A stretch of 64,000 bases of DNA from an uncultured virus (IMG/VR IMGVR_UViG_3300047499_000163) (IMGVR_UViG_3300047499_000163), one strand, 5' to 3'. Shown: positions 4,722 to 64,000, numbered from the stretch's first letter. Program-made: numbers and translations. The notes: generated from the letters alone by a model not told the origin.

Positions 4722-5363
4722 ATGGCAGACCTCGGTAAATCACAACTCCGAGCAAACCAGAATGCCGGAAACTCTCCAGCAGGAGTGACTGGCTATCCTT
4801 TGGGCTCGAGGGGCAACACGTACAATTCGCTGAACACGCAGCTCGATCAGCACAACTTTCCTTCACGAGACTTGCTACTCGCCAGCAAAAGCATTACGCC
4901 GGCGGGATCCAATCCTCCCATTCCGAGCAAAGGTAGTCAGCATCAGTATCGACTGGCCAGCGTCTCTGATGCCACGTTCAAGCAGTCCAAGAACATTGGA
5001 CTAATTAGCCCATCCATCACACCCGCGGGCTTCGGGGCGACTGACACGGCAGGACGAGGGTTCCATTACTACAGCCTCGGTACGACGAAGGATTCTCTTG
5101 CTGGTAGAATCGCACGCTCCGGAGGACTCGTCGGAGGCCAAGCGCTCGAGACGGGTCAGACTCAGGGCGAAACTGGCGGACTCCCCATCGCCGGGACGGG
5201 AGGCACAGCCTCTCACTATTACCTGCGCGCCCAAGACCAAGGCTGCTTGCCGACTCTCACGTACGTCTATTGGGTGTCGACGACGGTCTCGTTGAATAGT
5301 TACCTTGGCGTCAAGCCCTGCGGCGGACCGCTCATCAACCTGACGATCCTCGCCAAGTTCTAG
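4722..5363 (+). CDS. Hypothetical protein, probably in the structural operon
   Basis: 213 aa ORF starting 3 nt after the previous stop. Confidence 0.6.
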   Translation: MADLGKSQLRANQNAGNSPAGVTGYPLGSRGNTYNSLNTQLDQHNFPSRDLLLASKSITPAGSNPPIPSKGSQHQYRLASVSDATFKQSKNIGLISPSITPAGFGATDTAGRGFHYYSLGTTKDSLAGRIARSGGLVGGQALETGQTQGETGGLPIAGTGGTASHYYLRAQDQGCLPTLTYVYWVSTTVSLNSYLGVKPCGGPLINLTILAKF

Positions 5364-5599
5364 CTCTCCATGATGTTGATGACGACCTGCATGTCGCAAT
5401 CTTCCTGCAGGCCATTGCAGTTGAGAGCGTCCGGCTGAGGCGGCTTCTTCGGCGTAGCCATCCCGTACTCGTCGTATTTGCCGGTCGTCAACGCGATGGT
5501 ATCGCACCTGTGGCAGTACCACTCGAAGTACGGGACATCATTGCCGTCGCCACCTGAGCCGTTCGTGCTGCCCTGATACGTCCAGTTGTGGGGCTTCAC
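5360..5599 (-). CDS. Small HxW/CxxC/C zinc-finger protein with C-terminal IMES tag
   Basis: HNW...WYCHRC...CDMQVVINIMES*; GTG start 9 nt after the promoter motif. Confidence 0.7.
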   Translation of the reverse strand: MKPHNWTYQGSTNGSGGDGNDVPYFEWYCHRCDTIALTTGKYDEYGMATPKKPPQPDALNCNGLQEDCDMQVVINIMES

Positions 5600-5608
5600 A
5601 TTTGCAAG

Positions 5609-5632
5609 TACAGTGGGGCACAGGCAAGTTAC
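5609..5632 (-). promoter_or_regulatory. Phage promoter motif GTAA-N16-TGTA (leaderless type)
   Basis: Exact 16-nt spacer; GTG start 9 nt downstream. Confidence 0.6.
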
Positions 5633-6463
5633 GTGAACACAGTAGTAATGGTCTCGGGTGGGTTGGACTCGTTCCTCGCAGCGAACCAATTTCCGAAGGC
5701 AAAGCGGGTTTTCGTGGAATGGGGGCAGCCGTATCTCGAGCTGGAACGTAGAGCTGTAGCTCTGCTGCATCCGGGAGCCGAGGTCGTCCGAGTCGACGGG
5801 GCACCGATTCCTGAGGACTGCTATATTCCGGCGCGCAACCTGATGTTCGCCACCATCGGCGTGCGGTTCGGCTCCGAGATCTGCCTGGCCGGAATGCGGG
5901 ATGAGATGTGCGCGGACAAGTCACCCGACGCATTCCGCGACATGACCGACATCCTGACCAAACAATGCAAAAAGCCAACTCGGGTCTTCAGTCCGTTTTG
6001 GAACGTGACCAAGGCGGAGGCGGTCCGTTCTTACCTGGCCAAGGGCGGAGACCCGGAGCTTCTCTGCCAGACGGTCTCCTGCTACGGGAGCGGCCAGAAG
6101 CCGTGTCTCGACTGCGAGGCGTGCTTCAGGCGGTTCGTCGCGCTCGCGTCCAACGGAGTACCCGTCCCGCGGCCGACAGAGGCCGTAGTGCGTGCCTATG
6201 GACTCAACCGTCTGGTGTCTGCCCCGGCTGCCACAGTGCACGACACTCTTCGGGCGCTCCATCTTTCGGGTTCCCCTGTCCACGCTCTTGAGCTGACCGA
6301 GGATATTCTCGAGCACAATCACCCGTACGAAGGACTCCGTGTCGTGTACACGCCCAAGCGCGACGCGCCCTTGAATCTCATCCAGAAGACCCTCGCCGGC
6401 CACGGATTCCCATTCGACGTGGTCCTGACCGGACACTCAGCGCAGCTCTTTCAATTTTCATAG
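5633..6463 (+). CDS. queC: QueC-like 7-cyano-7-deazaguanine synthase (PP-loop ATPase)
   Basis: SGGLDS PP-loop, YIPARNLMF, SPF...TKAE, and the Zn motif SCY...CxxCxxC. Confidence 0.75.
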   Translation: MNTVVMVSGGLDSFLAANQFPKAKRVFVEWGQPYLELERRAVALLHPGAEVVRVDGAPIPEDCYIPARNLMFATIGVRFGSEICLAGMRDEMCADKSPDAFRDMTDILTKQCKKPTRVFSPFWNVTKAEAVRSYLAKGGDPELLCQTVSCYGSGQKPCLDCEACFRRFVALASNGVPVPRPTEAVVRAYGLNRLVSAPAATVHDTLRALHLSGSPVHALELTEDILEHNHPYEGLRVVYTPKRDAPLNLIQKTLAGHGFPFDVVLTGHSAQLFQFS

Positions 6464-6475
6464 GGGATATCCTGT

Positions 6476-8577: not shown

Positions 8578-8808
8578 TTACGACGTGTGAATTTTGTACG
8601 CGATGTATTCGTCGCAGTCCATCGAGACTCCGGGCAGGCGAAACTGGTCTCGGTTGCCCGTCATCTCCATCAGTACCACGCGCTTGTCCGCATCTGGTGC
8701 TGTGGGTCCAAGGTGTTTCCAGCCGCAGCGCGTGCAACTCCACGTGTGCTCAGGAGCGGGTGGGATCCCATTCCAGCAGGCGTCGAGTTGCCACTTATGC
8801 TGGCTCAC
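8578..8808 (-). CDS. Small zinc-finger protein with C-terminal IHTS tag
   Basis: HKW...WSCTRC...CDEYIAYKIHTS*; GTGA overlap with the upstream stop. Confidence 0.7.
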   Translation of the reverse strand: MSQHKWQLDACWNGIPPAPEHTWSCTRCGWKHLGPTAPDADKRVVLMEMTGNRDQFRLPGVSMDCDEYIAYKIHTS

Positions 8809-9005
8809 GACTCGTGAATGTCCTTGGCGATCTGCTCGTAGCAATCGGGCTCAATACCGGCTTTCTTCGCCGCGTCGAGCATGGAACTCTTGTCGTCAAA
8901 GACGTCCTTCTGGATGGGACCCTTGCCGCACCTGGTGCACGTATAATGCCGGTACCGGTCGTTGCGCGGCTGCTTCGCTGCAAGTTCCCAGGTGTGGGCG
9001 GCCAT
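8805..9005 (-). CDS. Small zinc-finger protein with C-terminal IHES tag
   Basis: HTW...YTCTRC...CYEQIAKDIHES*. Confidence 0.7.
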   Translation of the reverse strand: MAAHTWELAAKQPRNDRYRHYTCTRCGKGPIQKDVFDDKSSMLDAAKKAGIEPDCYEQIAKDIHES

Positions 9006-9006: not shown

Positions 9007-9395
9007 TCAGCTCCTCGGAGGTGTCAGAGGGAGGAAGGACACCAGCTTGACCTTACCTGCCTCCTCGGCGACTTTGTAGAAATACTTGTCGTAGCCAAGG
9101 CTGCAGTAGATTTCTTTGTCCCAAAGAATGATCCAGTGACGACAGCTCAAGCCGGTCCACTTGACGTTGATGAGGCAAGGGTCAGTGGCAGGCTTCTTCG
9201 AGGAGATTACAATGCGTTTGTCGGGAACTTGCCAGCCCCGAGAGCGAAGCACACGAATCATGTCGCGTGTCCAGGTCTGACGCCTGTGACCGAAAAACTA
9301 CACGATTCGTCGAGCGAGACGTTCTCGAGCATGGCCACGGCGCACTGGCCGCAAAGGTTCGAATCGCGCGGCTGCAGCACCCAGTTAAGACTCAT
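9007..9395 (-). pseudogene. Frameshifted C39-like cysteine peptidase-fold protein
   Basis: LQPRDSNLCGQCAVAML in one frame, HWIILWD in another; break near 9280-9300. Confidence 0.4.
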
Positions 9396-9407
9396 GGATG
9401 TACTGCA

Positions 9408-10055
9408 CTACCTTGATTGGACACTCCTCGCCGGGCGAGTGCGAATGTCCTCGAAGTTGTCGTCGACGAGGAGCTTGCCGTTCTCCCAAACGGTCACCAT
9501 GGCCGAATCGGGAGAGGGCTTCCTGTCCGGGCGCGAGATGGTCTTGTAGCCATCCTGCGTCAGGATGGTATCCAGCCAGCCCGCAGCACTGGCCTTGTGG
9601 TGATCGGTCGCCGGGTCCTTGTTGAAGGCCACGTGCTCGCCGTTGACTGTGGCGTCCGACCCTTGTACGCGTAACCCTGCATGTCCCGGTTCACCTTCTG
9701 CAGGAGAGCGCTGCCGGAACCGAAGGCGAGATTGCTGGTCGAGAAACCTGCTCGAGCCACCGCCTCCAGGGCTTCGCCAGAAGGTCATCGACTGCGGCAG
9801 CACCATCGTCATCCGTCCGGACTCGGGTGACCCGCAGACGTCCGTCATGAGCACGCTCGTGAAGCTCGCGGACGGCTTCGGCACGATCAAGAACAGAAGG
9901 GGTACAAGGTCCTCAAGAACGTGGCCGTCATCCAGGGCGACGGCATCAACCCCGAAAGCATTCGCGAAATCTCTTCGTCCATCCGTTCTCGACTGCGTTC
10001 TTGAGGTCGTACGAATCCGACACGCATGCGATGAAAGGATACTTCTGTGCGGCGG
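9408..10055 (-). pseudogene. nadV: Nicotinamide phosphoribosyltransferase (NAMPT) remnant, C-terminal half, with an internal inversion and frameshifts
   Basis: Minus strand: ACVSDSYDLKNAV, FGSGSALLQKVNRD, KDPATDHHKAS, VWENGKLL. Plus strand: VIRPDSGDP and GYKVLKNVAVIQGDGI. Confidence 0.85.
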
Positions 10056-10060
10056 GAGCT

Positions 10061-15544: not shown

Positions 15545-16384
15545 CTAAGACTCCATGACGTGTTCAACTGCGAGCAGGTCTCGCATTGGACCGCGTTCGC
15601 GTTTCACCGCCTGGCAAAATTGCCGCTGATTGAACCTGTCCCAATTCGCAAGAATGAACTCTTCCATCTTGTCGAGGTCTATGCCAGGGACGTCGGCACA
15701 TACTTGCACAAATATCGTGGGCATGCAGCCTACCTCGAGCAGACACCTCTCCAGGATGGGAACAGCCTCTGGCCGTCCCTCGCAGAGGCGGGCCATGTGA
15801 CGTCCCACGGGATCTCGTGCCTTTAGCAGAAGAAGTGTGATGGTTGCAAACAATGACATTCTATGGGGAAGACGCACGGTCATGTCGACGAGCCGGCCGA
15901 CATCACCTGCATGCGTAGCGATCCAATGCTGAACGGGCACGGGGTTGGTGTTCGGCACGTCGCGCAAGAACATCTCGAAAAATCCGGCATCGAGCCGCTC
16001 ACTCAGTGGTGGGGCTGGAAGATGCTCATACTTTCGTTCCTCGGCTTGCCGCACGAGTTCGTTCTGGATCTCCTGCGCGAGTTCAGGACGAGACTTCGCC
16101 AGCGCCTTCACGGCAAACACGTCGCCCGAACTCCGAACACGCTCGACGATCAGCGCCAGGTCATCGCCCTCGAAGAGGGCTGCCATCTCTGCGCAATAGA
16201 CCGGGTGCTCCTGGAGCGAAGCTATTAGCAACTCGTCCTTCCATTTGGGAAGGAGCTTTCGAAAGCGTGGGTGTCCTCCGAAGAGGCTCACTTCAAGCTT
16301 GATCCAGACTACTCGGTTGACAAACCCCTCTTCGAGGGGCCGCTGCCTGAGCCGGTCGGGGAGTGCTGCATCATCATCGCTCAC
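15545..16384 (-). CDS. Hypothetical protein with C-terminal VMES tag
   Basis: 279 aa ending DLLAVEHVMES*; promoter motif at 16395-16418. Confidence 0.7.
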   Translation of the reverse strand: MSDDDAALPDRLRQRPLEEGFVNRVVWIKLEVSLFGGHPRFRKLLPKWKDELLIASLQEHPVYCAEMAALFEGDDLALIVERVRSSGDVFAVKALAKSRPELAQEIQNELVRQAEERKYEHLPAPPLSERLDAGFFEMFLRDVPNTNPVPVQHWIATHAGDVGRLVDMTVRLPHRMSLFATITLLLLKARDPVGRHMARLCEGRPEAVPILERCLLEVGCMPTIFVQVCADVPGIDLDKMEEFILANWDRFNQRQFCQAVKRERGPMRDLLAVEHVMES

Positions 16385-16394: not shown

Positions 16395-16418
16395 TACGCC
16401 GGCGAATTCTCTACTTAC
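16395..16418 (-). promoter_or_regulatory. Phage promoter motif GTAA-N16-CGTA
   Basis: Exact spacing; GTG start 10 nt downstream. Confidence 0.6.
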
Positions 16419-16684
16419 GACTCCATGACGTAAACCACAACCGCAGCTTCACAAAGGGGGCAGGAGTTTTCGTTGACGCCGAAATCCTTCCAAAGCCTGT
16501 TGTGAGGGCATACGTCTGGCCATTCGAGCTGCTCTTTGGGAGTCACTTGTTCCAAACCCCAGGAGCGCTTGATGTAGCGTCTGTGGCATCTGACGCAGAC
16601 CATCGCTATAACGCGGCTCTTGGTCGCGTCAAGCTCTTCGTCGAGAGCCCATCCACAGACGCACGGATTTCCGAGGAAGCTCAC
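16415..16684 (-). CDS. Cys-rich small protein with C-terminal VMES tag
   Basis: CVC, CVRC, CPH, CPLCEAAVVVYVMES*. Confidence 0.7.
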   Translation of the reverse strand: MSFLGNPCVCGWALDEELDATKSRVIAMVCVRCHRRYIKRSWGLEQVTPKEQLEWPDVCPHNRLWKDFGVNENSCPLCEAAVVVYVMES

Positions 16685-18785: not shown

Positions 18786-18992
18786 CTAACTTTCCATCAC
18801 CTCAGCGACGGCCTGCATGTCGCAATTGAGGCTCACGCCGTACTCGACAATCTCGTTGAGAAGCGGGTAACCCGTCTCGGTCTTGGCTAGCTCGGTTCTG
18901 CACCGAATACACTTCCAGACGAAACCTTCTTTCGTCCCATTCCGCAACGGAATGCGCTGCGCGATCACCCACTTGTGATCGGGGTACTTCAC
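18786..18992 (-). CDS. Small zinc-finger protein with VMES tag
   Basis: HKW...WKCIRC...CDMQAVAEVMES*. Confidence 0.75.
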   Translation of the reverse strand: MKYPDHKWVIAQRIPLRNGTKEGFVWKCIRCRTELAKTETGYPLLNEIVEYGVSLNCDMQAVAEVMES

Positions 18993-19267
18993 GACTCCAT
19001 AACCTCTTGGACCTGCTCCAGACGCGAAACGGTCTTGCGGGCCTCCCGCTGATCTGCGAACTCACCGACGAAATCGCCCGTGAGAAAGTTCACCTGCTGG
19101 CCATCCCGCCGCACGACGATGTGCGGCCGAGGAATGATTGCCTTGAGATCGCTTCCTTCGGCCTGGAACTGCTGATCGAAAATCTCGTAGGTCTCGCCAT
19201 CGTGGAGAGTCTCGATGACGTACGGCGAGCGGATCGAAGCGGTGGCGTGGTAGACGATGTATTTCAT
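18989..19267 (-). CDS. Hypothetical protein with VMES tag
   Basis: MKYIVYH...LEQVQEVMES*. Confidence 0.7.
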   Translation of the reverse strand: MKYIVYHATASIRSPYVIETLHDGETYEIFDQQFQAEGSDLKAIIPRPHIVVRRDGQQVNFLTGDFVGEFADQREARKTVSRLEQVQEVMES

Positions 19268-19599
19268 GCAGACATCACGGCTTCGACGCGCTCCATGTTG
19301 TCCCGGAAGTCCATCACTTCCTCGAAGAGCTTGGCCAGGTACCCGTCGTCTGAGCTGAATTTCTCGTAGCGGGCGCTGACGCTTTCGGGTGTGAACTCTC
19401 GCCCGAACGTGCGAGTCATCTTCTCCGCGACAGCCTTCCAGCCACCTTCCATTTTGATGCGCTGGCCGCCGCGAGTAAAGATATACTCGAAGTCGTCCTT
19501 CTCCTCGTTCCATACCGCCGCTTCGAGCGTGAGGTAGTACAGGAACAAATCGTGCTCGTGGTCGTAGAAGAACTTGCGGGAGGGGCCTCGAACACTCAT
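19264..19599 (-). CDS. Hypothetical protein with VMSA tag variant
   Basis: Ends MERVEAVMSA*. Confidence 0.65.
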   Translation of the reverse strand: MSVRGPSRKFFYDHEHDLFLYYLTLEAAVWNEEKDDFEYIFTRGGQRIKMEGGWKAVAEKMTRTFGREFTPESVSARYEKFSSDDGYLAKLFEEVMDFRDNMERVEAVMSA

Positions 19600-19634: not shown

Positions 19635-20078
19635 TCAGGGCCAGCAGTCTTGCTGGAGCTGCTTGTAATACTCCGTGGCCTCTTCCCAGGACTTGGCCAC
19701 GAAGGATAGCATGGGGGTCTCGCCGTCCTCGAACATGGCGCGCAGACGCAGCATGTTGACGGGCGTGCTCAGGCAGACCGGCACTCCGTCCTCGTTCTTC
19801 CACACCTCGAAGATGATGCCGTGGAGTTGGTTGTGGGCGTAAGCCTCGGCTGAGGCCGCAGCCCTCTCCTCGAGGAGAGCCCGCATGTACGCGCGAGCGC
19901 AATCCTCGTCGTCCTCCTCGGCCTCCCACTCGTCGGGATCTTCCGCATGCATCCAGCGCATCTCGACGATGCAATCGTCGGCGGCGACCTGCACAATCCT
20001 GTGGACGTGGTCCTGCACGATGGAGTGCAGCTCGCCCTGCCAGATGACTTGCTTGTCCATGCGCCCTCGCGTACTCAC
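19635..20078 (-). CDS. Acidic hypothetical protein
   Basis: 147 aa, GTGA coupling. Confidence 0.6.
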   Translation of the reverse strand: MSTRGRMDKQVIWQGELHSIVQDHVHRIVQVAADDCIVEMRWMHAEDPDEWEAEEDDEDCARAYMRALLEERAAASAEAYAHNQLHGIIFEVWKNEDGVPVCLSTPVNMLRLRAMFEDGETPMLSFVAKSWEEATEYYKQLQQDCWP

Positions 20079-20755
20079 GACAGCATTACACTTGCGACTT
20101 GGAACTCATCCCGGAGCTTCTGCAGGGCAGCCGATATGTCTTCGCCGATCCTGTCATACTTGGCCACGAGATTATGCAGACCCCGCAGCGACTTGTATGG
20201 CAGATATTCGCGTGCCTTGGGATCCAGGGCCTTCTCGAACCACGCATCCATCGAGTAGCCCTTGGGATTGTCGACAGTGCTAAGGTGCGGCGTCTCCTCG
20301 TACTCCTTGAACCACTTGTTCATGAGATTGCGCGCCTTGGTCTCGAAGGACTTCTGCACGTCCTTCGGCATGCGCTTGCGGTCGAAGTCCGTCAGGTCCT
20401 TGAAGCGCTGGCCCACCATCATGTTGAACGGTTCGGGGCTGTACGGAGTGTTGTATTCGGGAGACTTGAGCTTCTCCTTGAGCATCGGGCCGACGCTGCC
20501 GCCGCAGAAGTGCTCGGCCAGAGGATTGGTCATGATCCAGTCGAGAAACTTCGGCGTGAGCACAGCGCGTGTTTCTTCCCACACCACGAGCTCGACGTCC
20601 GCCGTCCCGTTGCCACGAAGCTTGAGCTTCCCGTCGAGGGCCAGCAGCATCTCGTCGGCAACGCCAGTGTTCAGGAAGAACGAGAACAGGCCCCGTAGGA
20701 TGTTTTCCTCGGGCGAGCGCGTGTCGGTGATCAGGAATTCGGTCTCTGCTTTCAT
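20075..20755 (-). CDS. Hypothetical protein with VMLS tag variant
   Basis: Ends DEFQVASVMLS*. Confidence 0.7.
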   Translation of the reverse strand: MKAETEFLITDTRSPEENILRGLFSFFLNTGVADEMLLALDGKLKLRGNGTADVELVVWEETRAVLTPKFLDWIMTNPLAEHFCGGSVGPMLKEKLKSPEYNTPYSPEPFNMMVGQRFKDLTDFDRKRMPKDVQKSFETKARNLMNKWFKEYEETPHLSTVDNPKGYSMDAWFEKALDPKAREYLPYKSLRGLHNLVAKYDRIGEDISAALQKLRDEFQVASVMLS

Positions 20756-20964
20756 GAATCCATCACCTGGCTCACCTTGGCCTCGTCAACTAGACGAAGA
20801 AGTCTCTTGGCGAGATTCTCGGCCTGCTTGAGCGAGAGACGCTGCCGGTCTCGCTTCTGGCGCAGGATGATCTCGATGTCCCGATTGAGGCACCCGGGCT
20901 CCATCCGTGAACACTCCACCACTTTCGTGTGCGGAGCCTTCTTGTATGAGTGCCCGTGCTTCAT
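20752..20964 (-). CDS. Small basic protein with VMDS tag
   Basis: Ends VDEAKVSQVMDS*; ATGA coupling. Confidence 0.65.
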   Translation of the reverse strand: MKHGHSYKKAPHTKVVECSRMEPGCLNRDIEIILRQKRDRQRLSLKQAENLAKRLLRLVDEAKVSQVMDS

Positions 20965-47836: not shown

Positions 47837-48036
47837 GATTCCATCACTTGCCGGGCGACAACCAGGTCGCAATCCTCGGTCCTGTGCGGTTGGTCCGCGT
47901 CGTCCGGGCACACCCCTCGCTCGAGATGGACGGTCTTGCCGCATCTGTCGCAGCCCCACACCGTCAGGTGGCTCAGCATTCCCCGGGGAGGAAATGGCCG
48001 AGGCGAATGGTTGATGTGCCAGCGATGGGGTGTCAC
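47833..48036 (-). CDS. Small zinc-finger protein with VMES tag
   Basis: HRW...WGCDRC...CDLVVARQVMES*. Confidence 0.75.
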   Translation of the reverse strand: MTPHRWHINHSPRPFPPRGMLSHLTVWGCDRCGKTVHLERGVCPDDADQPHRTEDCDLVVARQVMES

Positions 48037-50425: not shown

Positions 50426-50623
50426 TCAGTCCATATGGATTTTCATGACGAGGGCCACGTCGCAATCCTGGCCTGCAGCCACCACTTCATGGTCCTTGTG
50501 CGGGTCGAATCCCTTGTAGAGGGTGGTGCCCCAACCGCACCTGTGGCAACGCCACCTGACACTAGTGGGTCCGCCGAGAGCAGACCGCCACTCGGATTCT
50601 TGAACCCACTCGTGCGGCTTCAT
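50426..50623 (-). CDS. Small zinc-finger protein with IHMD tag variant
   Basis: HEW...WRCHRC...CDVALVMKIHMD*. Confidence 0.7.
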   Translation of the reverse strand: MKPHEWVQESEWRSALGGPTSVRWRCHRCGWGTTLYKGFDPHKDHEVVAAGQDCDVALVMKIHMD

Positions 50624-52868: not shown

Positions 52869-53078
52869 CTAGGATTCCATGATTTCGGCCACGATGGTCA
52901 GATCATTGAACTCGTCGCATGGCCACCGGCCAAATACTTCTTCGATCTGATACGGCACGGCCTTCTTCGTGGTCTTGTCACGTACGAAGCGCATACTGCA
53001 CCGGCGGCAGACCACCGTCTCCACATCGAGATACGTTTGCACCACCTCGAAGTCGTGACCTTTGTCGTCGAGGCTCAT
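52869..53078 (-). CDS. Small zinc-finger protein with IMES tag
   Basis: HDF...VCRRC...CDEFNDLTIVAEIMES*. Confidence 0.7.
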   Translation of the reverse strand: MSLDDKGHDFEVVQTYLDVETVVCRRCSMRFVRDKTTKKAVPYQIEEVFGRWPCDEFNDLTIVAEIMES

Positions 53079-53240
53079 GACTCCATCACCACGCGGACGA
53101 TCTCGTCATGTAGAGCAGACTGGAGATGCTCCCCGAGCTTGACACAGTGCCGCTACACGCCGTAGCTCGAGCTGGATCTTGGGGTCTTCCCTGAACTTGC
53201 GAGCCCCGATACGGAGCTGGTGCAGTCGAGCTTGTGCATG
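53075..53240 (-). pseudogene. Frameshifted small VMES-tag protein
   Basis: Ends HDEIVRVVMES*; promoter at 53262-53285. Confidence 0.5.
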
Positions 53241-53293: not shown

Positions 53294-53512
53294 TCAGGCT
53301 TCCATCACCTTGTACACGATCATCTCTTCACAAGACAGATACGCCGTCTCGTTGGGTTCCTTCTTGACGTGCATCTTCTCGTCGGGAGCTGGCGCCGAAT
53401 GCCTGTGGGTCTCGTAACCGCAGTTGCCGCAGACGAACACCTGGCGACTCTCGTTGCCGAAGTTGTCCTTCGAATAGGGGAACCGCCCCGTGGCCTGCCA
53501 GTCGTGGTTCAT
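53294..53512 (-). CDS. Small zinc-finger protein with VMEA tag
   Basis: HDW...FVCGNC...CEEMIVYKVMEA*. Confidence 0.7.
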   Translation of the reverse strand: MNHDWQATGRFPYSKDNFGNESRQVFVCGNCGYETHRHSAPAPDEKMHVKKEPNETAYLSCEEMIVYKVMEA

Positions 53513-54038
53513 GACTCGCGAAGCGTGCCTACTCCGTCCGAGAAGACCCATGATGCGTTCGACGACGAACTCGTCGACGCAATCCCCGAAGATCTTGCGC
53601 CAGTCATCCAGCGAGAAGCCGGACGTGTTCTTCTGATACATGAGCCGCTTGATATCCGATTTCACGGACACCAGGCGCCGCTCCTTGTCCTCGGCTTTGG
53701 CGAGAGTCTTCGGGTCAGGAACCTCGCTGGCGGGGACAACTGTCACGAGCTTGACGTGCCCTCGCAGATTACGCACGCGCGTTTCTCTGTGGCCTAGGTC
53801 CTCACCCACGGCAGCAGACTGGCCTGCATGACGGGACCGTGCAGTTGGCAGAACCCGAACACGTCGTGGTACCGGGCCTCGCGCAGACGGTACGGGAAAA
53901 GCTCCGAGTATTCGGCCCGCAAGAACACGTCGATGTTGCGCCCACACGGCTTCGTTGACGTCCACTTCACGAGCTTGCCCGTGATGGCATCTTTGGCCCC
54001 GTGGACCTCACCATCAACGCGGTAGACGCACTTTGTGC

Positions 54039-54257: not shown

Positions 54258-54874
54258 GCACCACCTCCGCCCGCTGATACGCGCGGAGGCGCCCGATCTG
54301 CTACTTGCTTCGGATGATGATGCTCGAGTGCCGGCGCCTCGTGGAGGAGGCTCTCGTCAGCAGCTCGCATACCTTCATCGAGAGCCTGGCCAGAACCGCG
54401 AGCTGGTCGGCAGTCATCCTCTCGACAGTCGTGTTTGCGATGTCCTCGAACTCGTCGTCCGGAAGAAGACCGAGCTTACGGGCGGTCTTGAGAGTACCGA
54501 GCGCAGCCTCGCGCAAAGCGGCATTTTCGACCGCGTCTCTCGGAACTATCGCTAGGCGTTGCATGTCCCTCCCCGGACCGCCCGCGCGGTCCTCAGTCGT
54601 AATCGCCGTCGTCGTCGAGAATGATCACACTTCCGTCGTTGCGCACCACCGCTGCGGAGTCGTCCGGGTCTATGTCCAGTCGGAACTGCCGCTGGGTGTC
54701 CTCACAGGACGGCGGCGGCAAGGTGTCCGCAGAACGGGTATTCGGCTCGGGATACATCATAGCCTTTCCGATTTTACAGGCATAAGGCGGCGAACGCACG
54801 AAGAAGTTACAGCCGAAGGTGAGTCTGGCCCTTTTGTAGCGCTCGTTGTGCCTGGCAAGGCGTGGGGAGACACC

Positions 54875-55066
54875 GTGAATCTGGTCGCGCATGACTGGCA
54901 CCAGGTGCCCGCCGCGTTCAATAAGTGGCAGTGCTCCAAGTGCGGGTGCGCGGTCGCATCTGGCTGCAGACCTCCGGCTTTCCACGAGGTCCTCACTTTC
55001 CAGGATGGTCAAGAGTTCCTAGGAAACTGCGCCGAGATTCAGGTCTGGCAAGTGATGCTGGCCTGA
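54875..55066 (+). CDS. Small zinc-finger protein with VMLA tag variant
   Basis: HDW...WQCSKC...CAEIQVWQVMLA*. Confidence 0.65.
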   Translation: MNLVAHDWHQVPAAFNKWQCSKCGCAVASGCRPPAFHEVLTFQDGQEFLGNCAEIQVWQVMLA

Positions 55067-55504: not shown

Positions 55505-55684
55505 TCACGACTCCATGATTTCTTTGACGATACGCAGGTCGCACTCGCCGACCTGAGGTTTGTGCTTGGAGCTACACTCTTCACCGCAACGAGTGCAACG
55601 CCACAGAGGCGCTCCGAAGGCCACGGCGATGGCTTGCCCGAGGGTCAGCGGCTTCTTGGCGAGCCTCTCCCACTGATGCTTCAC
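55505..55684 (-). CDS. Small zinc-finger protein with IMES tag
   Basis: HQW...WRCTRC...CDLRIVKEIMES*. Confidence 0.75.
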   Translation of the reverse strand: MKHQWERLAKKPLTLGQAIAVAFGAPLWRCTRCGEECSSKHKPQVGECDLRIVKEIMES

Positions 55685-55882: not shown

Positions 55883-56302
55883 TCATGACTCCATCACGTC
55901 CATGGCGATCTGCTCGCCGCAGTTGGGGTTGAGGTTCACCTTGGCGCACGCCTGGGCGAGGGTCTCGCTTCGCTGGACGTTGACCTGCCTCAGGCAGCTC
56001 TCGCAGCGCCACACGTAGTAGTCGTCCTCGTAGATGGCGTCCTGGATGGTCTTCCACTTGTGGTTGCCGTAGTCGGGCTCCTCTTCCGGGAGGGTTTTGG
56101 CGTCGTCCGACTCGGCCATCTGGTCAAGCATGGCATCGAACGGGCTCTTCTCGACCAGCGCGCCGCCGTGCCCGATGAGATGGGCGTACGGGTCCGGAGG
56201 GCCAGCGGGGGCCTCGGGCGCGGCCTCCTTCGCGGCCTCGGGCGCGGCCTCGGGCTGTGGCGCCTTGTCGAGGCTCTCCAGGAACTTGTCGAAATCGCTC
56301 AC
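55883..56302 (-). CDS. Zinc-finger VMES-tag protein with an acidic N-terminal extension
   Basis: HKW...WRCESC...CGEQIAMDVMES*; promoter at 56323-56346. Confidence 0.75.
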   Translation of the reverse strand: MSDFDKFLESLDKAPQPEAAPEAAKEAAPEAPAGPPDPYAHLIGHGGALVEKSPFDAMLDQMAESDDAKTLPEEEPDYGNHKWKTIQDAIYEDDYYVWRCESCLRQVNVQRSETLAQACAKVNLNPNCGEQIAMDVMES

Positions 56303-59359: not shown

Positions 59360-59536
59360 CTAGTGGCGGTTGCGCCACGAGCGGGTGATCCGCCAGTAGA
59401 CGAGGTTCGCCAAATGGCGCTGACTCCACGAGGATTCGAAGTGCAGCTTGAGGTACCGGGCGAGCTTCTCCAGATACGCACGTTTGGACCTAATCAGGTC
59501 GCCGCGCCTCAAAGCCTCGGGAGCCAGAAAGCTCAT
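59360..59536 (-). CDS. Small basic protein
   Basis: Ends LHFESSWSQRHLANLVYWRITRSWRNRH*. Confidence 0.6.
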   Translation of the reverse strand: MSFLAPEALRRGDLIRSKRAYLEKLARYLKLHFESSWSQRHLANLVYWRITRSWRNRH

Positions 59537-60123
59537 GACAGCATCACTGTCGCAACAGCAATCAGGTCCTCCAGCTCTTGCTTGGAAGGGAAGGGCCTGT
59601 CGACCGTGAACATATTGTCCACTATGACGGCGAGATGCCGGACGTACTCGCTGCAACCGAGGGCCTTCTGGCAGATATCCGCAAGCGAGTTGTGCGTCAG
59701 ATGGCGGGCCTTGCGGTCCTGCTCCTTGATGTGGATGAGACCGCGCACGATGCCTTCCGGACCGAGTTCCTTGGCAAACTGACTCAGGCCGTCCGGGTAT
59801 CCGATACGCCAGATGGTCTCCTGTATGAGATCTTCCGGAATAGGCAGACCCCTTTGCTTGCAGACGTTGCGGTATTTCTTGGCGTTGGTGATGAGCGACC
59901 GAGAAGTCTTGCCTCCGAACTTGGGGTCGCTCATGCGCCGGTCGAGGTACGCCTGCAGCGCCTCCCTCGGGTCGCACACCTGGCACTTGCGCAGATGCTT
60001 GAGGACGGCTCCGTACAGGATCTGGTTGTCGACGATGAAGCTCGACACCGGGCCGGTCTTCGTCTCTTTCGAGGTCCGACCGTCCTTCCGACCCTCCACG
60101 GTGATTTCGCAGTTCAGACCCAT
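59533..60123 (-). CDS. Hypothetical protein with VMLS tag
   Basis: HLRKCQVC; ends ELEDLIAVATVMLS*. Confidence 0.65.
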   Translation of the reverse strand: MGLNCEITVEGRKDGRTSKETKTGPVSSFIVDNQILYGAVLKHLRKCQVCDPREALQAYLDRRMSDPKFGGKTSRSLITNAKKYRNVCKQRGLPIPEDLIQETIWRIGYPDGLSQFAKELGPEGIVRGLIHIKEQDRKARHLTHNSLADICQKALGCSEYVRHLAVIVDNMFTVDRPFPSKQELEDLIAVATVMLS

Positions 60124-61252: not shown

Positions 61253-61447
61253 GTGATCACCTGCGAACTGCATCTGATGATGGGGCCATTCCCCGACAGA
61301 TGCGACAGTGAAGCTGAATACTTCTACCAAGTGGGTGGCAGTTATCCTGAATATCACGCCCGCTGCAAACGACACCCGATGAACATGGAGGTCTGGAAGC
61401 CGGTCTCCAAGGAGCAGTATGTCTTCGGCTCTGTCATGGATTCCTAA
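61253..61447 (+). CDS. Small Cys/His protein with VMDS tag
   Basis: ARCKRH...VSKEQYVFGSVMDS*. Confidence 0.65.
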   Translation: MITCELHLMMGPFPDRCDSEAEYFYQVGGSYPEYHARCKRHPMNMEVWKPVSKEQYVFGSVMDS

Positions 61448-61622
61448 ATGCGACTTCTGCGGGAACACCGCTTGTAAGTTTTACAAGGCCCACCGTCGAA
61501 ACGCCTGGGAGCAGACGAAATACTTCGCTTGCTGCAATCTCCATAAGAATCCGATCAGAGACGATTCCGAAGGAGAGGTTTCCATCGACGAGTATGTTAT
61601 CGCAGGAATCCACGACTCGTGA
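61419..61622 (+). CDS. Small Cys/His protein with IHDS tag
   Basis: CDFC...CCNLH...VSIDEYVIAGIHDS*. Confidence 0.65.
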   Translation: MSSALSWIPKCDFCGNTACKFYKAHRRNAWEQTKYFACCNLHKNPIRDDSEGEVSIDEYVIAGIHDS

Positions 61623-61685: not shown

Positions 61686-61895
61686 TTGTTCCATCATGTC
61701 AGGACACAAGAATCTTTCCAACACCGGAAGTTCAAAGACGTCAGGCTCACCCTGCGAGACGGGACTGTTCACACGCCAGTCAACGGCTGGAAGTGCAAGC
61801 GGTGCGGCCACATCTGGTGGGACTGCACGCCGCCTCGGCCGAGAGCCGAGCCCATTTGCCATATGCTCATCGTGAGCAAAGTGATGGAATCATGA
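61686..61895 (+). CDS. Small zinc-finger protein with VMES tag (start uncertain)
   Basis: WKCKRC...CHMLIVSKVMES*. Confidence 0.6.
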   Translation: MFHHVRTQESFQHRKFKDVRLTLRDGTVHTPVNGWKCKRCGHIWWDCTPPRPRAEPICHMLIVSKVMES

Positions 61896-62182
61896 ACGAA
61901 CGGGACTACAGCGAAGCGGTGTACGACTGGCGAAGGACGGGCCGGCAGGACGCCGCGAACGTGATGGACCCGAACGAGATCGAGGACCGTCTCGGCAAGG
62001 AGCCCTCTGCTGCGGCCGTCAAGAAGTGGCTGCTCGAGGAGACGGATCCCGAGATCTACCTCGAAATGCCCGGGGATGTCACGGAGGAGCAGAAGAAGGG
62101 CCTGCTCGATGCATGGGCGGATGGCTGGTCGGCGTACGCTTCGCATGCCATGGTCGGAAGGCCAAGGCCGGAGGATTCGTGA
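61892..62182 (+). CDS. Acidic hypothetical protein
   Basis: ATGA coupling. Confidence 0.55.
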   Translation: MNERDYSEAVYDWRRTGRQDAANVMDPNEIEDRLGKEPSAAAVKKWLLEETDPEIYLEMPGDVTEEQKKGLLDAWADGWSAYASHAMVGRPRPEDS

Positions 62183-62463
62183 CAGAGGAGTTGCCCTCAA
62201 TCCAGTGCGACTACTGCTGGGGAGATTCGCCGTCGCAGCAAGTACCGGACCGAGGGAGCCGGTGCCCGCACGAGGCCGAGCTTTTCTACATGATAAAATG
62301 TCGCCCCAACAGGCGAGATACCATGGAGGTCGCCCGGAGGCTCGGCCGCGACTTGTATATCTCGGCAAGGTGCCCGGCGCATCCGCGAGCGGATTCCACG
62401 CTCTTCGAGCGCCAGCCCATCAGCCGGGCCGAGTACCTGGTCGCTGAAGTGATGGAGTCGTGA
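62179..62463 (+). CDS. Cys/His protein with VMES tag
   Basis: CDYC...ARCPAH...ISRAEYLVAEVMES*. Confidence 0.7.
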   Translation: MTEELPSIQCDYCWGDSPSQQVPDRGSRCPHEAELFYMIKCRPNRRDTMEVARRLGRDLYISARCPAHPRADSTLFERQPISRAEYLVAEVMES

Positions 62464-62687
62464 CAAGCCCCATCCGCCCCGACCAGCACGATTGGAGGAA
62501 GGGAGGAAGGCTCCGCTTGCCAGCGGACGTGCGTCCAGGAAAGCCCGCCCTGTGGCTCTACTCGTGCAGGAAATGCGGTCACTCGACCGCGGCGCAGTTC
62601 CAACCGAGCCGGAACGCAAAAGTCCAGCTCAAAAGCGGGAACTTCTCCTGCGATGAGTACCTAGCGCGCAGGATCCACGAGAGCTGA
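62460..62687 (+). CDS. Small zinc-finger protein with IHES tag
   Basis: HDW...YSCRKC...CDEYLARRIHES*. Confidence 0.75.
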   Translation: MTSPIRPDQHDWRKGGRLRLPADVRPGKPALWLYSCRKCGHSTAAQFQPSRNAKVQLKSGNFSCDEYLARRIHES

Positions 62688-62690
62688 GGG

Positions 62691-63029
62691 TCACTCCTCG
62701 CCGCGAGCCCGGCGCTTCTCGTGAGATACCCGGCCGCCGACGCGACCCGCGCGCCTGGCCTCTTCCGAAGTGAACTCGTGAGCGGTGCCTGCTCGGTGGG
62801 CAGCCTTGCCGCCTTTGCGGGCAATCTCGGACACGAGCTTGCGGTCCATGGCCGCAAAGCCGCGGGGTCGGGATTTGTCCGAATAGGGACCGGGCTGGGA
62901 CCGAGGGGCTTCTTTCGCGGCAGGAGTCTCGGCCACGGTGTCCAGACCGTGGCATTCGGAGAACTTCTTGCCGGAAGCGCAGGGGCAAAGGTCTGAGGGA
63001 GCGGGCATCGCCTGCCACTCTACACTCAT
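62691..63029 (-). CDS. SEC-C motif plus KGG-repeat stress protein
   Basis: DLCPCASGKKFSECHG and RGFAAMD...EIARKGG...AHEFTSEEARRAG. Confidence 0.75.
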   Translation of the reverse strand: MSVEWQAMPAPSDLCPCASGKKFSECHGLDTVAETPAAKEAPRSQPGPYSDKSRPRGFAAMDRKLVSEIARKGGKAAHRAGTAHEFTSEEARRAGRVGGRVSHEKRRARGEE

Positions 63030-63957
63030 TCGAAGGTGCGCTCGTCTGGATGGGCTTGGAGAAATTCCGCCAGAACGTTGGGCAGAAGCCCCTCTCCGAC
63101 ATCTTCGCCGTTGATGGTCTGCGGGGTGAACGCCACGTATTTGTTGCCGAACTCCTGCATGAGCTTGGTCTGAAATTGTTTGTCCTGCAGAAGCGTGCAG
63201 GATCTCGTCGTCGGAGATGGAACTCTCTTCCGATTCCGGCTCCATGTCGGCTGGTCCGACGAATTCTATCGACGCCGTGGCGTCAGAGCTGTCGGTATTC
63301 TTCCAATCGTAGTCCAGCTCGGCAAAGCAGAGGACCTTGACATCGGGGCTCTTGCCATTCCACGCAAGCCGGGTGCGACTTGCGATACGCAGATTTGGCC
63401 AACGCGCGCGTGCCACGCGCATAGCAGCAAGGGGTACAAGCCTACCTGCAGACGACGGCGATGATGGCCGAGGGAAGATACGAGACGTAGCACTCTTCGT
63501 CAGCGTCGCCCACGACGCGCACGAGGTATCCGCCGAGGTCGGTGTTGTTGACGGTGAAGTTGCAGAGCGAGAGCTTGGCGCGGCCGACTTCTTGCGAACC
63601 GTGGCGCCCGCCGAGGACGGGAGAGAGGAACTGCACGTCCACATACTCGGGCGTCAGGGCCTTGCACTCGACGAGACCGGGATAGTGGTCCGACAGTTCT
63701 TCGAAAAGGCGCTGCAGACGGTCCTGCATCCCCACGTCAGCCATGGCCGAGGGTACGGCGCGCGAGGTCGCGTTTCCGTCCGAGCTGCGCCGAAGATGCT
63801 CGGACTGGATCAATTTCAACAATTTCTCGCGGGTTCTGGAAGGTGCGCGCGAGACCAGCTTGGAAAACCCGCCTTCGGGGTTCTTCGCAGCATGCAGCAC
63901 CTGCATGCTTGGAGCGACCTATTGTTTCATTATGTCGTACCGTCTCCTACACAGTCT

Positions 63958-64000
63958 TCAGGAGGTCATGACCTGCCAGGCAACGAAGTCGCCGAGAGTG
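63958..64000 (-). CDS. C-terminal fragment of a tag-family protein (VMTS)
   Basis: ...LGDFVAWQVMTS*, truncated by the window edge. Confidence 0.5.
   Translation of the reverse strand, partial: TLGDFVAWQVMTS

What the first reader, a model, noticed from the sequence alone, without database searches (positions are those of the whole stretch)
5360..64000. About 45-50 unrelated phage proteins share one C-terminal tag, [VI]-[MH]-[ED]-S-stop: a candidate adaptor or sorting system
Seen directly (numbers are stop-codon coordinates): VMES* at 15545, 16415, 18786, 18989, 20961, 21539, 22075, 25459, 31038, 31828, 32522, 41010, 41216, 41529, 45308, 47595, 47833, 53075, 55883, 61895 and 62463. IMES* at 5360, 40834, 42373, 52869 and 55505. 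[VI]H[ED]S* at 8805, 22705, 37883, 40590, 61622 and 62687. Close variants are VMDS, VMQS, VMEA, VMSA, VMLS, VMDT, VMTS, IHTS, IHMD, TMEC and VMLA. The tag is usually preceded by a small hydrophobic pair at positions -8/-7, consistent with a 12-residue amphipathic helix. The carriers range from about 60 to 280 aa, lie on both strands, and include zinc fingers, helical proteins and a membrane protein. None of the recognisable enzymes (ligase, PolX, QueC, AAA+, HNH) carries it. Inference: a variable N-terminal domain plus a constant terminal docking helix is the logic of adaptor families such as F-box/PRANC-type proteins. These proteins may all bind one hub (protease/AAA+ machine, RNA polymerase or sigma, a PDZ/TPR protein) or use one route (capsid packaging, compartment import, timed degradation). 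I do not recognise this motif from any described phage system.
Basis: partly seen in the sequence, partly recalled or inferred. Interest (0 to 1): 0.92.

Follow-up and report, generated by a model that had tools for sequence, protein, structure and literature searches.

The report
Shared tail tag on giant-phage proteins
A group of uncultured giant bacterial viruses ends about a third of its small accessory proteins with the same short helical tail, which resembles the address labels that bacteria use to load enzymes into protein compartments, so it probably brings these proteins to one common place or partner that is still unknown.

Summary
All 32 listed stop coordinates carry [VI][MH][ED]S-stop. 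The window holds 35 such ends against 0.07 expected, and about 47 with close variants, out of roughly 125 genes. Selection acts on the protein: third codon positions vary freely, Ser uses both TCN and AGY, and nothing is conserved after the stop. The tail is modular. One beta-domain family has 93 tailed and 19 tail-less members of 120. Carriers include a zinc-ribbon family (17-19 of 47) and, in relatives, ankyrin-repeat proteins and a RuvC-like resolvase. It is lineage-wide in uncultured 150-440 kb phages with 51-67% GC, reaching 70 pattern hits in one genome. It forms an amphipathic helix and scores like the EutC microcompartment encapsulation peptide. No known shell, protease, PDZ or clamp gene was found in relatives. 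The scan's notes hold no earlier record of this tail, only different shared tails in other huge phages.

The parts
5360..5770 (-). tail carrier, zinc-ribbon (HCCC) family, ends IMES (Ser = AGC)
8578..8844 (-). tail carrier, zinc-ribbon family, ends IHTS
8805..9005 (-). tail carrier, zinc-ribbon family, ends IHES
9385..9453 (-). intact tail codons (..IKVVQYIHES-stop) one frame off, just past the end of the NAMPT-like gene 9408-10082
15545..16384 (-). tail carrier, 279 aa, ends VMES
16415..16684 (-). tail carrier, Cys-rich, ends VMES
18786..18992 (-). tail carrier, zinc-ribbon family (folded model), ends VMES (Ser = AGT)
18989..19267 (-). tail carrier, ends VMES
19264..19599 (-). tail carrier, variant VMSA
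20075..20755 (-). tail carrier, variant VMLS
20752..20964 (-). tail carrier, ends VMDS
20961..21542 (-). tail carrier, helical 'W-type' tail, ends VMES
21539..22078 (-). tail carrier, W-type tail, ends VMES
22075..22428 (-). tail carrier, W-type tail, ends VMES
22705..23073 (-). tail carrier with CxxC..CxxC and two hydrophobic stretches (likely membrane protein), ends VHDS; start uncertain
25259..25459 (+). tail carrier, zinc-ribbon family, ends VMES; overlaps the end of the convergent carrier 25456-25749
25456..25749 (-). tail carrier, variant VMQS
25919..26533 (-). tail carrier, variant TMEC
26534..27292 (-). tail carrier, variant VMEA; orthologue in L001 ends VMNA
31038..31481 (-). tail carrier, beta-rich domain (phrog_22676-like) plus appended helix, ends VMES; family has tailed and tail-less forms
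31828..32088 (-). tail carrier, zinc-ribbon family, ends VMES
32522..33358 (-). tail carrier, 278 aa, ends VMES; 84%-identical relative keeps the tail
33428..33619 (-). tail carrier, zinc-ribbon family, variant VMDT
36940..37329 (-). tail carrier, variant VMSA
37883..38083 (-). tail carrier, zinc-ribbon family, ends VHES
40590..40775 (-). tail carrier, ends VHES
40834..41097 (-). tail carrier, ends IMES
41010..41219 (-). tail carrier, ends VMES
41216..41437 (-). tail carrier, ends VMES
41529..42110 (-). tail carrier, W-type tail, ends VMES
42373..43077 (-). tail carrier, ends IMES; orthologue in L001 ends IMEN
45308..45523 (-). tail carrier, zinc-ribbon family, ends VMES
47595..47836 (-). tail carrier broken by a frame change in this strain; a contig of another run has 10 more letters behind 47697, which puts start and tail in one frame
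47833..48036 (-). tail carrier, zinc-ribbon family, ends VMES
50426..50623 (-). zinc-ribbon family member with decayed tail IHMD
52869..53078 (-). tail carrier, zinc-ribbon family, ends IMES
53075..53149 (-). tail codons (..VVMES-stop) in a 25-codon open frame; upstream coding looks one frame off; no indel seen in another run
53294..53776 (-). tail carrier, zinc-ribbon domain at C-terminus, variant VMEA
54305..55066 (+). ORF with zinc-ribbon domain at C-terminus, variant VMLA; start uncertain, not kept by my gene caller
55505..55684 (-). tail carrier, zinc-ribbon family, ends IMES
55883..56302 (-). tail carrier, acidic N-terminus plus zinc-ribbon, ends VMES
59533..60123 (-). tail carrier, variant VMLS; relatives in L004 and L007
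61253..61447 (+). tail carrier, CxxC..CxxH type, ends VMDS
61419..61622 (+). tail carrier, CxxC..CxxH type, ends IHDS
61686..61895 (+). tail carrier, zinc-ribbon family, ends VMES
62026..62463 (+). tail carrier, CxxC..CxxH type, ends VMES; start uncertain
62460..62687 (+). tail carrier, zinc-ribbon family, ends IHES (Ser = AGC)
34976..36475 (-). candidate reader only, binding untested: zincin-like peptidase fused to a VWA domain with intact HExxH and MIDAS residues; embedded in the carrier arrays and conserved in tail-bearing relatives
39349..40470 (-). candidate partner of the VWA protein, untested: MoxR-type AAA+ ATPase (AAA_5)

Best explanation
The tail is a portable, protein-level address or docking helix. 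It is 12-18 residues long and amphipathic. Hydrophobic residues sit at -8, -7, -4 and -3, and it ends in [VI]-[MHL]-[ED]-[SA]-COOH. A clade of uncultured huge phages has appended it to many different protein bodies: zinc ribbons, a beta domain, helical proteins, ankyrin repeats, a resolvase and a membrane protein.

I think it works like a bacterial-microcompartment encapsulation peptide. The hydrophobic face of the helix would bind one common surface, either a phage-made assembly or the helices of other carriers. All carriers would then be gathered in one place in the infected cell or in the forming particle.

Shown here:
- enrichment far above chance;
- selection at the protein level;
- strict C-terminal position;
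- modular gain or loss of the tail;
- spread across the phage lineage;
- a predicted amphipathic helix;
- sequence likeness to the EutC peptide.

Inferred only: that the tail binds anything, that carriers co-assemble, and where they go.
For: Enrichment:
- 35 strict tails against 0.07 expected, and 35 of the 40 six-frame occurrences lie at a stop.

Protein-level selection:
- Information at third codon positions is 0.09-0.58 bits, against 1.2-2.0 bits at first and second positions.
- Ser uses TCN and AGY.
- Nothing is conserved after the stop.
- The peptide is unchanged in relatives of 51-67% GC.

Modularity:
- In the family of 31038-31481, 93 of 120 members carry ..YRDRVKxxKxV[MHL]E[SAGT] and 19 stop at ..YRDRK.
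- In the AF2 model the beta domain has pLDDT above 90 and the terminal helix 134-146 about 67.
- phrog_22676 ends about 19 residues before this protein does.

Diversity of bodies:
- BLASTP gives 46 components of 47 once tails are removed.
- Five ankyrin-repeat carriers in L004.
- A RuvC-like resolvase with the tail in G004.

Lineage:
- Strict/relaxed carriers in about 20 kb: L005 23/31, L002 15/22, and L009 (which has the tail-less orthologue) 0/0.
- Whole-record pattern hits against control: G004 70 vs 0, G002 34 vs 1, G003 16 vs 0, G006 14 vs 0, G007 4 vs 0.

Helix:
- DSSP helices at residues 57-66 and 134-146.
- Helical hydrophobic moment 1.06 against 0.71 for other gene ends (p = 5e-6).
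- Pro+Gly 7 of 456 against 140 of 1020.

Likeness to encapsulation peptides:
- EutC1-19 is MDQKQIEEIVRSVMASMGQ (PMC3299773, passages).
- Its window QIEEIVRSVMAS scores 16.3 bits on the tail matrix, inside the carriers' own range of 11.3-31.4.
- It is reached by 0 of 58,926 and 0 of 69,511 control windows, and by 1 of 200,000 random 19-mers.

What is known of encapsulation peptides:
- They are terminal amphipathic helices of about 18 residues, found on packaged but not on free homologues, at the N- or the C-terminus (PMC4594438, passages).
- They bundle and drive co-condensation of different cargo (PMC12339742, PMC7221423, passages).
Against: - No binding, co-assembly or localisation was tested, and the complex prediction could not be run.
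- No shell gene of a known kind was found in related records. BMC PF00936 gave 0 of 6, encapsulin PF04454 gave 0 of 6, and the phiKZ nuclear shell protein gave 0 of 5 with its own record as positive control.
- Encapsulation peptides show little sequence conservation. Here the last four residues are nearly invariant and nothing ever follows them, which fits a specific pocket that reads a free C-terminus at least as well.
- In the zinc-ribbon family the helix starts at the fourth zinc ligand with no linker, and may pack on its own domain.
- Glu(-10) and Arg/Lys(-6), which would match the published salt-bridge pair, occur together in only 12 of 106 tails.
- I noticed the EutC likeness from recall and tested it afterwards, so its significance is inflated by choice.
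- EutC has Ala where the tail has Glu (-5.8 bits).
Confidence: 0.5

Rival explanations
1. Capsid cargo label. The tail loads an arsenal of small effector proteins into the phage head, in the way encapsulin cargo-loading peptides or the T4 capsid targeting sequence do. The proteins would then be ejected with the DNA into the next cell. This is one specific destination within the best explanation, listed apart because it makes different predictions.
For: - C-terminal position on many small, fast-evolving proteins, including ankyrin repeats.
- The capsid is the only shell these genomes are sure to encode, and no other known shell was found.
- The [VI]-x-E followed by a small residue resembles the T4-type prohead protease site (recalled, not from a call).
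- A zincin-VWA/MoxR pair, proposed by others to act in virion assembly and processing (PMC7824862, passages), sits in the arrays.
Against: - Carriers lie among DNA-metabolism genes in long co-directional arrays of small genes, which in known phages are mostly early genes (inference; no expression data).
- A membrane protein and a resolvase are odd cargo.
- No T4-type protease was found (but the control was silent).
- The encapsulin peptide consensus (recalled) is not similar.
Confidence: 0.12
2. Plug for the phage's own MoxR-VWA-zincin machine. The Glu at -2 or the free carboxylate binds the metal of the VWA MIDAS site. Carriers, or host proteins held by them, would then be remodelled or cut.
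For: - The zincin-VWA gene (34976-36475) and the MoxR gene (39349-40470) lie inside the carrier arrays.
- The VWA protein is found in 4 of 4 complete tail-bearing genomes at 51-75% identity and in G001 at 60%. It was not found in G007, which has the tail-less orthologue.
- HExxH and all MIDAS residues are invariant in 46 sequences.
- Ankyrin plus tail fits an adaptor.
- MIDAS sites binding a Glu or a C-terminal carboxylate are known from other systems (recalled, not from a call).
Against: - The same gene pair occurs, at 22-28% identity, in many phages with no sign of the tail.
- G007 is only 67% complete.
- Binding was never tested.
Confidence: 0.12
3. Degradation or stability signal. The tail is read by a host AAA+ or C-terminal protease, or blocks one, to time the life of early proteins.
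For: - Strict need for the free C-terminus.
- A small last residue and a hydrophobic residue at -3, loosely as in ssrA-type tags (recalled).
- Carriers look like short-lived accessory proteins.
Against:
- A mere degron needs no conserved three-turn amphipathic helix.
- The acidic -2 residue is unlike known ClpX tags (recalled).
Confidence: 0.1
4. No tag at all. The tail is the inherited C-terminal helix of one huge, fast-diverging paralogue family, kept for folding.
For: - 17-19 of 47 carriers are one zinc-ribbon family in which the helix follows the last Cys directly.
- 395 cluster representatives of that family exist, and most of the 112 short ones end in the tail.
Against: - The tail sits on ankyrin repeats, a RuvC-like enzyme and a beta domain that also exists without it.
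- The last four residues are far better kept than the bodies. Mean column identity is 15% in A1.
Confidence: 0.05
5. A nucleotide-level signal (ribosome-binding site or translational coupling, recombination site, RNA element) that merely happens to be translated.
For: - Many ends read ..GGAGTC(A/G)TGA, with a possible overlapping start.
Against: - Third positions are free, and the His, AGY-Ser and GAA variants lose GGAG.
- Four-base stop/start overlaps are seen for 10 of 36 tail genes against 16 of 85 others, and 19 of 36 tail genes are followed by gaps of 31 bases or more.
- Nothing is conserved downstream.
Confidence: 0.01

Closest known systems
Encapsulation peptides of bacterial microcompartments, above all EutC(1-19) of Salmonella (PMC3299773; PMC4594438; PMC12339742)
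   Same: - A short terminal amphipathic helix.
- Portable between unrelated proteins.
- Present on some homologues and absent from others.
- A paired-hydrophobic pattern.
- The EutC core IEEIVRSVMAS scores 16.3 bits on the tail matrix, above every control window.
   Different: - No microcompartment shell gene in 6 related phage records.
- The tail is always at the very C-terminus and its last four residues are nearly invariant.
- Often there is no linker.
- There are dozens of carriers per genome, and they are not metabolic enzymes.
Encapsulin cargo-loading peptides and the T4 capsid targeting sequence (both recalled, not from a call)
   Same: - A short terminal label that puts diverse proteins inside an HK97-fold shell.
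- The encapsulin label is also C-terminal.
   Different: - No sequence likeness that I could test.
- No encapsulin shell and no T4-type protease found (control silent).
- The T4 label is N-terminal.
   Same: - A variable binding domain plus a constant C-terminal docking element.
- Ankyrin-repeat carriers exist in relative L004.
   Different: - Pfam found only ankyrin families on those proteins, with no PRANC or F-box.
- The tail is 12-18 residues, not a domain.
- No ubiquitin system is implied.
SspB-type adaptor tails and ssrA-type C-terminal degrons for ClpX (recalled)
   Same: - A free C-terminal peptide read by one machine.
- Many clients.
   Different: - The tail has an acidic -2 residue and a helix.
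- No phage ClpP or Lon.
- No stability data.
Other shared C-terminal tails noted by this scan in other huge phages (e1-5347349, e1-5468189, e1-5947260; unchecked AI notes)
   Same: - Dozens of small, fast-evolving phage proteins end in one short peptide.
   Different: - The peptides are different (K-[YW]-R-S-I-D-[DE], a helix ending Asp-Phe, Arg-Tyr).
- The phage lineages are different.
- None of the notes is this tail.
Lineage-specific zinc-ribbon expansions in jumbo phages, e.g. about 35 copies in Bacillus phage G (PMC7824862, passages)
   Same: - A large expansion of small zinc-ribbon proteins in a giant phage.
   Different: - No shared tail is described there.
- Here the tail extends beyond the zinc-ribbon family.

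Membership tests
BMC encapsulation peptide | 15-20 residue terminal stretch predicted to be an amphipathic alpha-helix | tested here: met
   AF2 helices at 57-66 and 134-146. Hydrophobic moment 1.06 vs 0.71, p = 5e-6. Pro+Gly 7/456 vs 140/1020.
BMC encapsulation peptide | joined to the functional domain by a poorly conserved linker | tested here: inconclusive
   There is a short connector in the 31038 family (residues 128-133). There is none in the zinc-ribbon family, where the helix begins at the last Cys.
BMC encapsulation peptide | present on packaged homologues, absent from free homologues | tested here: met
   The analogous pattern is seen: 93 tailed, 19 short and 8 other of 120 homologues. 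Packaging itself is not shown.
BMC encapsulation peptide | encoded with microcompartment shell proteins (Pfam BMC domain) | tested here: not met
   PF00936 gave 0 of 6 related phage records, and the control rang in 2 of 14 genomes. The window's Pfam scan showed none. The host genome is unknown.
BMC encapsulation peptide | binds shell tiles or drives cargo co-aggregation | not testable with these tools
Encapsulin cargo-loading peptide | an encapsulin shell gene nearby | tested here: not met
   PF04454 gave 0 of 6 records, and the control rang in 3 genomes.
Phage-nucleus (chimallin) import cargo | the phage encodes a chimallin-type shell | tested here: not met
   The phiKZ gp54 protein matched 0 of 5 related records and its own record. 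This was a single-sequence search, so distant forms could be missed.
ANK-PRANC / F-box adaptors | a C-terminal PRANC or F-box domain | tested here: not met
   Only ankyrin Pfam families were found on the five L004 proteins.
   PF00574, PF05362, PF13180 and PF03572 each gave 0 of 5 records, with controls ringing. A host reader is not testable.
Sliding-clamp-binding tails | the phage encodes a clamp | tested here: inconclusive
   PF00712 gave 0 of 5. PF02916 gave 0 of 5, but its control was silent.
MIDAS ligand of a MoxR-VWA machine | a VWA partner with an intact MIDAS, co-occurring with the tail | tested here: inconclusive
   MIDAS D-x-S-x-S, T and D are invariant. The protein is present in 5 of 5 tail-bearing records searched and was not found in G007. 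A distant copy exists in the tail-less phage XaC1.
HCCC zinc-ribbon family (unnamed; no Pfam or PHROG) | H-x-W ... C-x-x-C ... C followed by the tail helix | tested here: met
   This holds for 17-19 of 47 carriers only. H6, C28, C31 and C57 are invariant. The profile without the tail hits 17 of 47. No Pfam or PHROG match.

The most novel reading that the evidence does not exclude
A clade of uncultured 150-440 kb phages runs its own protein-sorting system. An encapsulation-peptide-like C-terminal helix marks 70 or more proteins per genome for one phage-made assembly, which could be a condensate or 'factory', a new kind of shell, or the head interior as a store of ejected effectors. This would be the first linear sorting signal known for a phage-infected cell. 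Ankyrin and zinc-ribbon carriers would serve as the arms that bring host targets along.
Probability: 0.3. Interest if true: 0.9.

Novelty: new variant of a known kind. Interest (0 to 1): 0.8.

Why it matters
- Hundreds of 'dark' proteins of huge phages would gain a common property, as clients of one route or partner. They would also gain a simple recognisable mark.
- A 16-residue peptide would become a direct bait for finding an unknown phage machine or compartment.
- It would be a portable tag for synthetic biology.
- It would show that terminal address peptides, known from microcompartments, encapsulins and the T4 head, are used on a proteome-wide scale by viruses of bacteria.
- Together with the different tails this scan noted in other huge phages, it hints at a general design principle of giant phage genomes.

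Tried and rejected
- **Whole genome of the window:** none is held.
- **Nucleotide search of isolate phages:** blastn gave only a 57-base ligase match.
- **Isolate relatives by protein:** the zincin-VWA protein and the 31038 protein matched only distant, tail-less relatives (XaC1, nickie, RHph_X66). XaC1 has 4 pattern hits against 4 control hits.
- **Pfam on carriers:** nothing over the curated cut-offs for 44 window carriers. For 110 carriers of relatives, only ankyrin was found.
- **PHROGs on carriers:** only phrog_22676 and phrog_159.
- **Foldseek of the zinc-ribbon model:** only weak NrdR and WRKY zinc-ribbon rows, E of 0.1 or more.
- **Profile of 104 tails against PDB sequences:** 0 hits at E up to 10.
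- **Reader and shell candidates:** S77, ClpP, Lon, PDZ_2, S41, beta-clamp, gp45-like, BMC shell, encapsulin and chimallin were not found in relatives. The S77 and gp45-like controls were silent.
- **NAMPT-like gene:** not found in 5 relatives, so whether that enzyme normally bears the tail stays open.
- **Conserved non-carrier gene 17878-18585:** the Atlas shows only widespread viral hypotheticals.
- **TnpB as a host clue:** the best match is 66% on a 4-kb contig of a Rhodobacterales bin, which is not conclusive.
- **tRNAs:** none.
- **Sigma-70-like promoters in 15000-34900:** 3 found against 4.2 expected, so no timing clue.
- **Expression:** no RNA holder listed.
- **Complex prediction (zincin-VWA with the 31038 protein, Mg and Zn):** queue full twice, then not available. 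Nothing was folded.
- **Tree of the 31038 family:** the short forms cluster (19 short among 33 leaves under their common ancestor, support 0.79) but are not one clean clade.
- **Cluster look-up of 9 proteins:** no organism names.
- **Literature:** searches found no description of this tail.

Full report
**What is there**

The window has about 60% GC. It holds about 125 genes, mostly small, on the minus strand and without database matches.

A six-frame scan of all 2532 stops finds 35 preceded by [VI][MH][ED]S. The motif occurs only 40 times in all frames, so it is almost confined to protein ends. Thirty third-order Markov simulations give 0.07 such ends, with a maximum of 1. The five internal occurrences lie in frames that do not look coding.

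A relaxed pattern gives 49 ORFs. I dropped two as chance, leaving 47. My own codon-usage gene caller keeps 38 of these among 123 genes. The tail therefore marks roughly a third of the genes between 5.3 and 64 kb.

**Protein or DNA?**

The evidence points to the protein.

- Over 87 strict carriers (34 in the window, 53 in relatives), first and second codon positions of the last four codons carry 1.2-2.0 bits and third positions 0.09-0.58 bits.
- Ser is coded by TCG, TCA, TCC, TCT, AGC and AGT.
- All three stop codons are used.
- Nothing is conserved after the stop.
- Relatives of 51% to 67% GC keep the peptide while switching GAG to GAA.
- Four-base stop/start overlaps follow 10 of 36 tail genes and 16 of 85 other genes. 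Nineteen of 36 tail genes are followed by 31 bases or more.

A ribosome-binding or coupling signal is thereby excluded as the cause.

**Extent of the motif**

Beyond the last four residues, -7 is V/A/I in 77 of 87 carriers and -8 is I/V/L in 53. Position -10 is mostly E or L, -11 is D/E/R, and -12 is C in 24 carriers.

Compared with other gene ends, the last 12 residues have a higher helical hydrophobic moment (1.06 against 0.71, p = 5e-6). They almost lack Pro and Gly: 7 of 456 against 140 of 1020.

**Who carries it**

With the tail removed, BLASTP links only two of the 47 bodies. The bodies are nevertheless not all unrelated. Nineteen share the pattern H-x-W...C-x-x-C-G...C followed by the tail, with the four ligands invariant. 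A profile of this family built without the tail finds 17 of 47.

This profile matches 395 cluster representatives among 1.84 billion proteins. Of the 112 short ones listed, 35 end VMES, 10 IMES, 7 VMDS and 5 VHES.

The AF2 model (pLDDT 76.6) is a three-stranded zinc ribbon with the tail as its final helix. Its only structural neighbours are weak NrdR and WRKY zinc-ribbon rows. The family has no Pfam or PHROG entry.

The other carriers are of several kinds:

- a small CxxC..CxxH group;
- helical proteins with a longer 'W-type' tail;
- a probable membrane protein (22705-23073);
- singletons.

**The tail is an add-on**

The protein 31038-31481 has 120 listed homologues. Of these, 93 end ..YRDRVKxxKxV[MHL]E[SAGT], 19 end at ..YRDRK, and 8 are other forms.

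Close orthologues swap Met, His and Leu at -3. An 81%-identical protein has VHES where the window has VMES.

The AF2 model gives a confident beta domain and a less confident terminal helix, with pLDDT about 67. PHROG 22676 ends about 19 residues before the protein does.

The relative that has the tail-less form (L009, 312 kb record) shows no carrier in 20 kb. Its whole record has 4 pattern hits.

**The lineage**

Relatives found through the zincin-VWA and the 31038 proteins are uncultured viral contigs of 158-436 kb. Four of them have terminal repeats and are rated complete.

| Locus (about 20 kb) | Strict carriers | Relaxed carriers |
|---|---|---|
| L005 | 23 | 31 |
| L002 | 15 | 22 |
| L004 | 3 | 12 |
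| L007 | 3 | 11 |

A loose DNA pattern was run over whole records. It also admits a few non-tail codons, and it misses Asp and AGY-Ser.

| Record | Hits | Control |
|---|---|---|
| G004 | 70 | 0 |
| G002 | 34 | 1 |
| G003 | 16 | 0 |
| G006 | 14 | 0 |
| G001 | 11 | 2 |

In G004 the carriers are densest at 8-95 kb but occur all round the genome. Twenty such dispersed carriers that I fetched are again small proteins of 72-263 aa.

Two findings in relatives change the picture:

- Five neighbouring ankyrin-repeat proteins in L004 end in a tail variant..VQKVM[SGN][AT].
- A RuvC-like resolvase in G004 matches phrog_159 over residues 1-154 (E = 5e-15). It carries an 87-residue extension ending ..VKEVMES.

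No isolate phage in the held collection shows the tail.

**Broken copies**

Three tails do not follow an intact frame.

- **47595.** The start at 47836 and the tail are two bases out of step. A contig of another run has ten more letters behind 47697, which brings them into one frame. The window's strain therefore carries a deleted allele of a real gene.
- **53075.** Another run shows the same sequence as the window.
- **9385.** A perfect tail lies one frame off, just beyond the stop of the NAMPT-like gene. Whether that enzyme is normally tagged stays open, because the relatives lack the gene.

**What it resembles**

The consensus ..E-x-[IVL]-[VA]-[RK]-x-V-M-E-S is close to the N-terminal peptide that sends EutC into the ethanolamine microcompartment. 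That peptide is MDQKQIEEIVRSVMASMGQ (PMC3299773, passages read).

On a 12-position matrix built from 106 strict tails, its best window scores 16.3 bits. Carriers score 11.3-31.4 with a median of 24.3. The controls all fall short:

- none of 58,926 windows of non-carrier proteins (maximum 14.1);
- none of 69,511 windows of bacterial and phage ORFs (none reaches even 12);
- 1 of 200,000 random 19-mers.

I noticed the likeness from recall and tested it afterwards, so the figure overstates the surprise.

Encapsulation peptides are defined as terminal, roughly 18-residue amphipathic helices. They sit on packaged but not on free homologues, at either terminus (PMC4594438, passages). They form bundles through their hydrophobic face and make different cargo proteins co-aggregate or condense (PMC12339742 and PMC7221423, passages).

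The phage tail meets the helix, terminal-position and with/without-homologue criteria. It fails the criterion of an accompanying shell: no BMC-domain gene in 6 records. Encapsulin and chimallin shells were not found either. The tail is also far more conserved, and more strictly terminal, than encapsulation peptides are.

**Who reads it?**

This is unknown. No ClpP, Lon, PDZ, S41, T4-type protease or clamp gene was found in five related records. Two of those searches had silent controls.

The only conserved machine inside the arrays is a MoxR AAA+ ATPase together with a zincin-like peptidase fused to a VWA domain.

- Its HExxH and MIDAS residues are invariant in 46 sequences.
- It is present in all five tail-bearing records searched and was not found in the tail-less G007, which is 67% complete.
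- The pair also exists, much diverged, in many phages without the tail.
- Others have proposed a role for it in virion assembly (PMC7824862, passages).

**Verdict**

The finding is real and wider than reported. It is a portable C-terminal helix that a whole clade of huge phages puts on a large share of its accessory proteins.

The best-supported mechanism is a common docking or co-assembly handle of the encapsulation-peptide kind (about 0.5). Its destination and partner are open. The main rivals are a capsid-cargo label, a plug for the MoxR-VWA-zincin machine, and a degron.

My four literature searches found no description of it. The scan's own notes hold different tails in other huge phages but not this one.

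Noticed in passing
window 2-301, 308-2368, 2376-4718 (+): Three consecutive ORFs end in ..GPWDGAT[VT]P[TSN][YF]. The two complete ones (686 and 780 aa) are paralogues, 52% identical over 654 residues. They have no Pfam or PHROG match and may be fibre-like proteins.
   Followed up: partly
window 14142-15470 (-): A TnpB/IS605 OrfB-type gene (OrfB_IS605, Cas12f1-like TNB and HTH domains) lies inside the phage genome. Its best genomic relative is 66% identical, on a 4-kb contig binned to Rhodobacterales.
   Followed up: partly
window 7348-8355 (+): A DUF7277 + DUF7275 protein (phrog_2141). Here the upstream gene 6476-7447 ends in a Gln-rich stretch.
   Followed up: no
window 9385-9453 (-): Perfect tail codons lie one frame off, directly behind the stop of the NAMPT-like gene 9408-10082. 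This could be a broken fusion, an assembly indel or a programmed shift. It is not resolved.
   Followed up: partly
window 47595-47836 (-): A 10-letter length difference between strains behind 47697 decides whether this carrier gene is in frame. The window and its likely source runs have the out-of-frame form.
   Followed up: yes
window 25456-25459; G001 43563-43579; G004 266511-266534: Convergent carrier genes overlap by their last codons and stops. This gives a near-palindromic junction and is seen in three genomes.
   Followed up: no
window 42111-42371 (-): This gene ends ..EQVMQSLWDN, a tail-like VMQS followed by four more residues. It may be a tail that lost its stop.
   Followed up: no
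window 17878-18585 (-): A non-carrier gene (235 aa, GC3 0.89) inside the arrays is the best-conserved neighbour, 47-61% identical in L001, L002, L004 and L007. It belongs to widespread viral hypothetical clusters of unknown function.
   Followed up: partly
window 49357-49359: Contigs of two runs that may be the source carry a 5-letter insertion variant here at about half the depth, which suggests strain heterogeneity.
   Followed up: no
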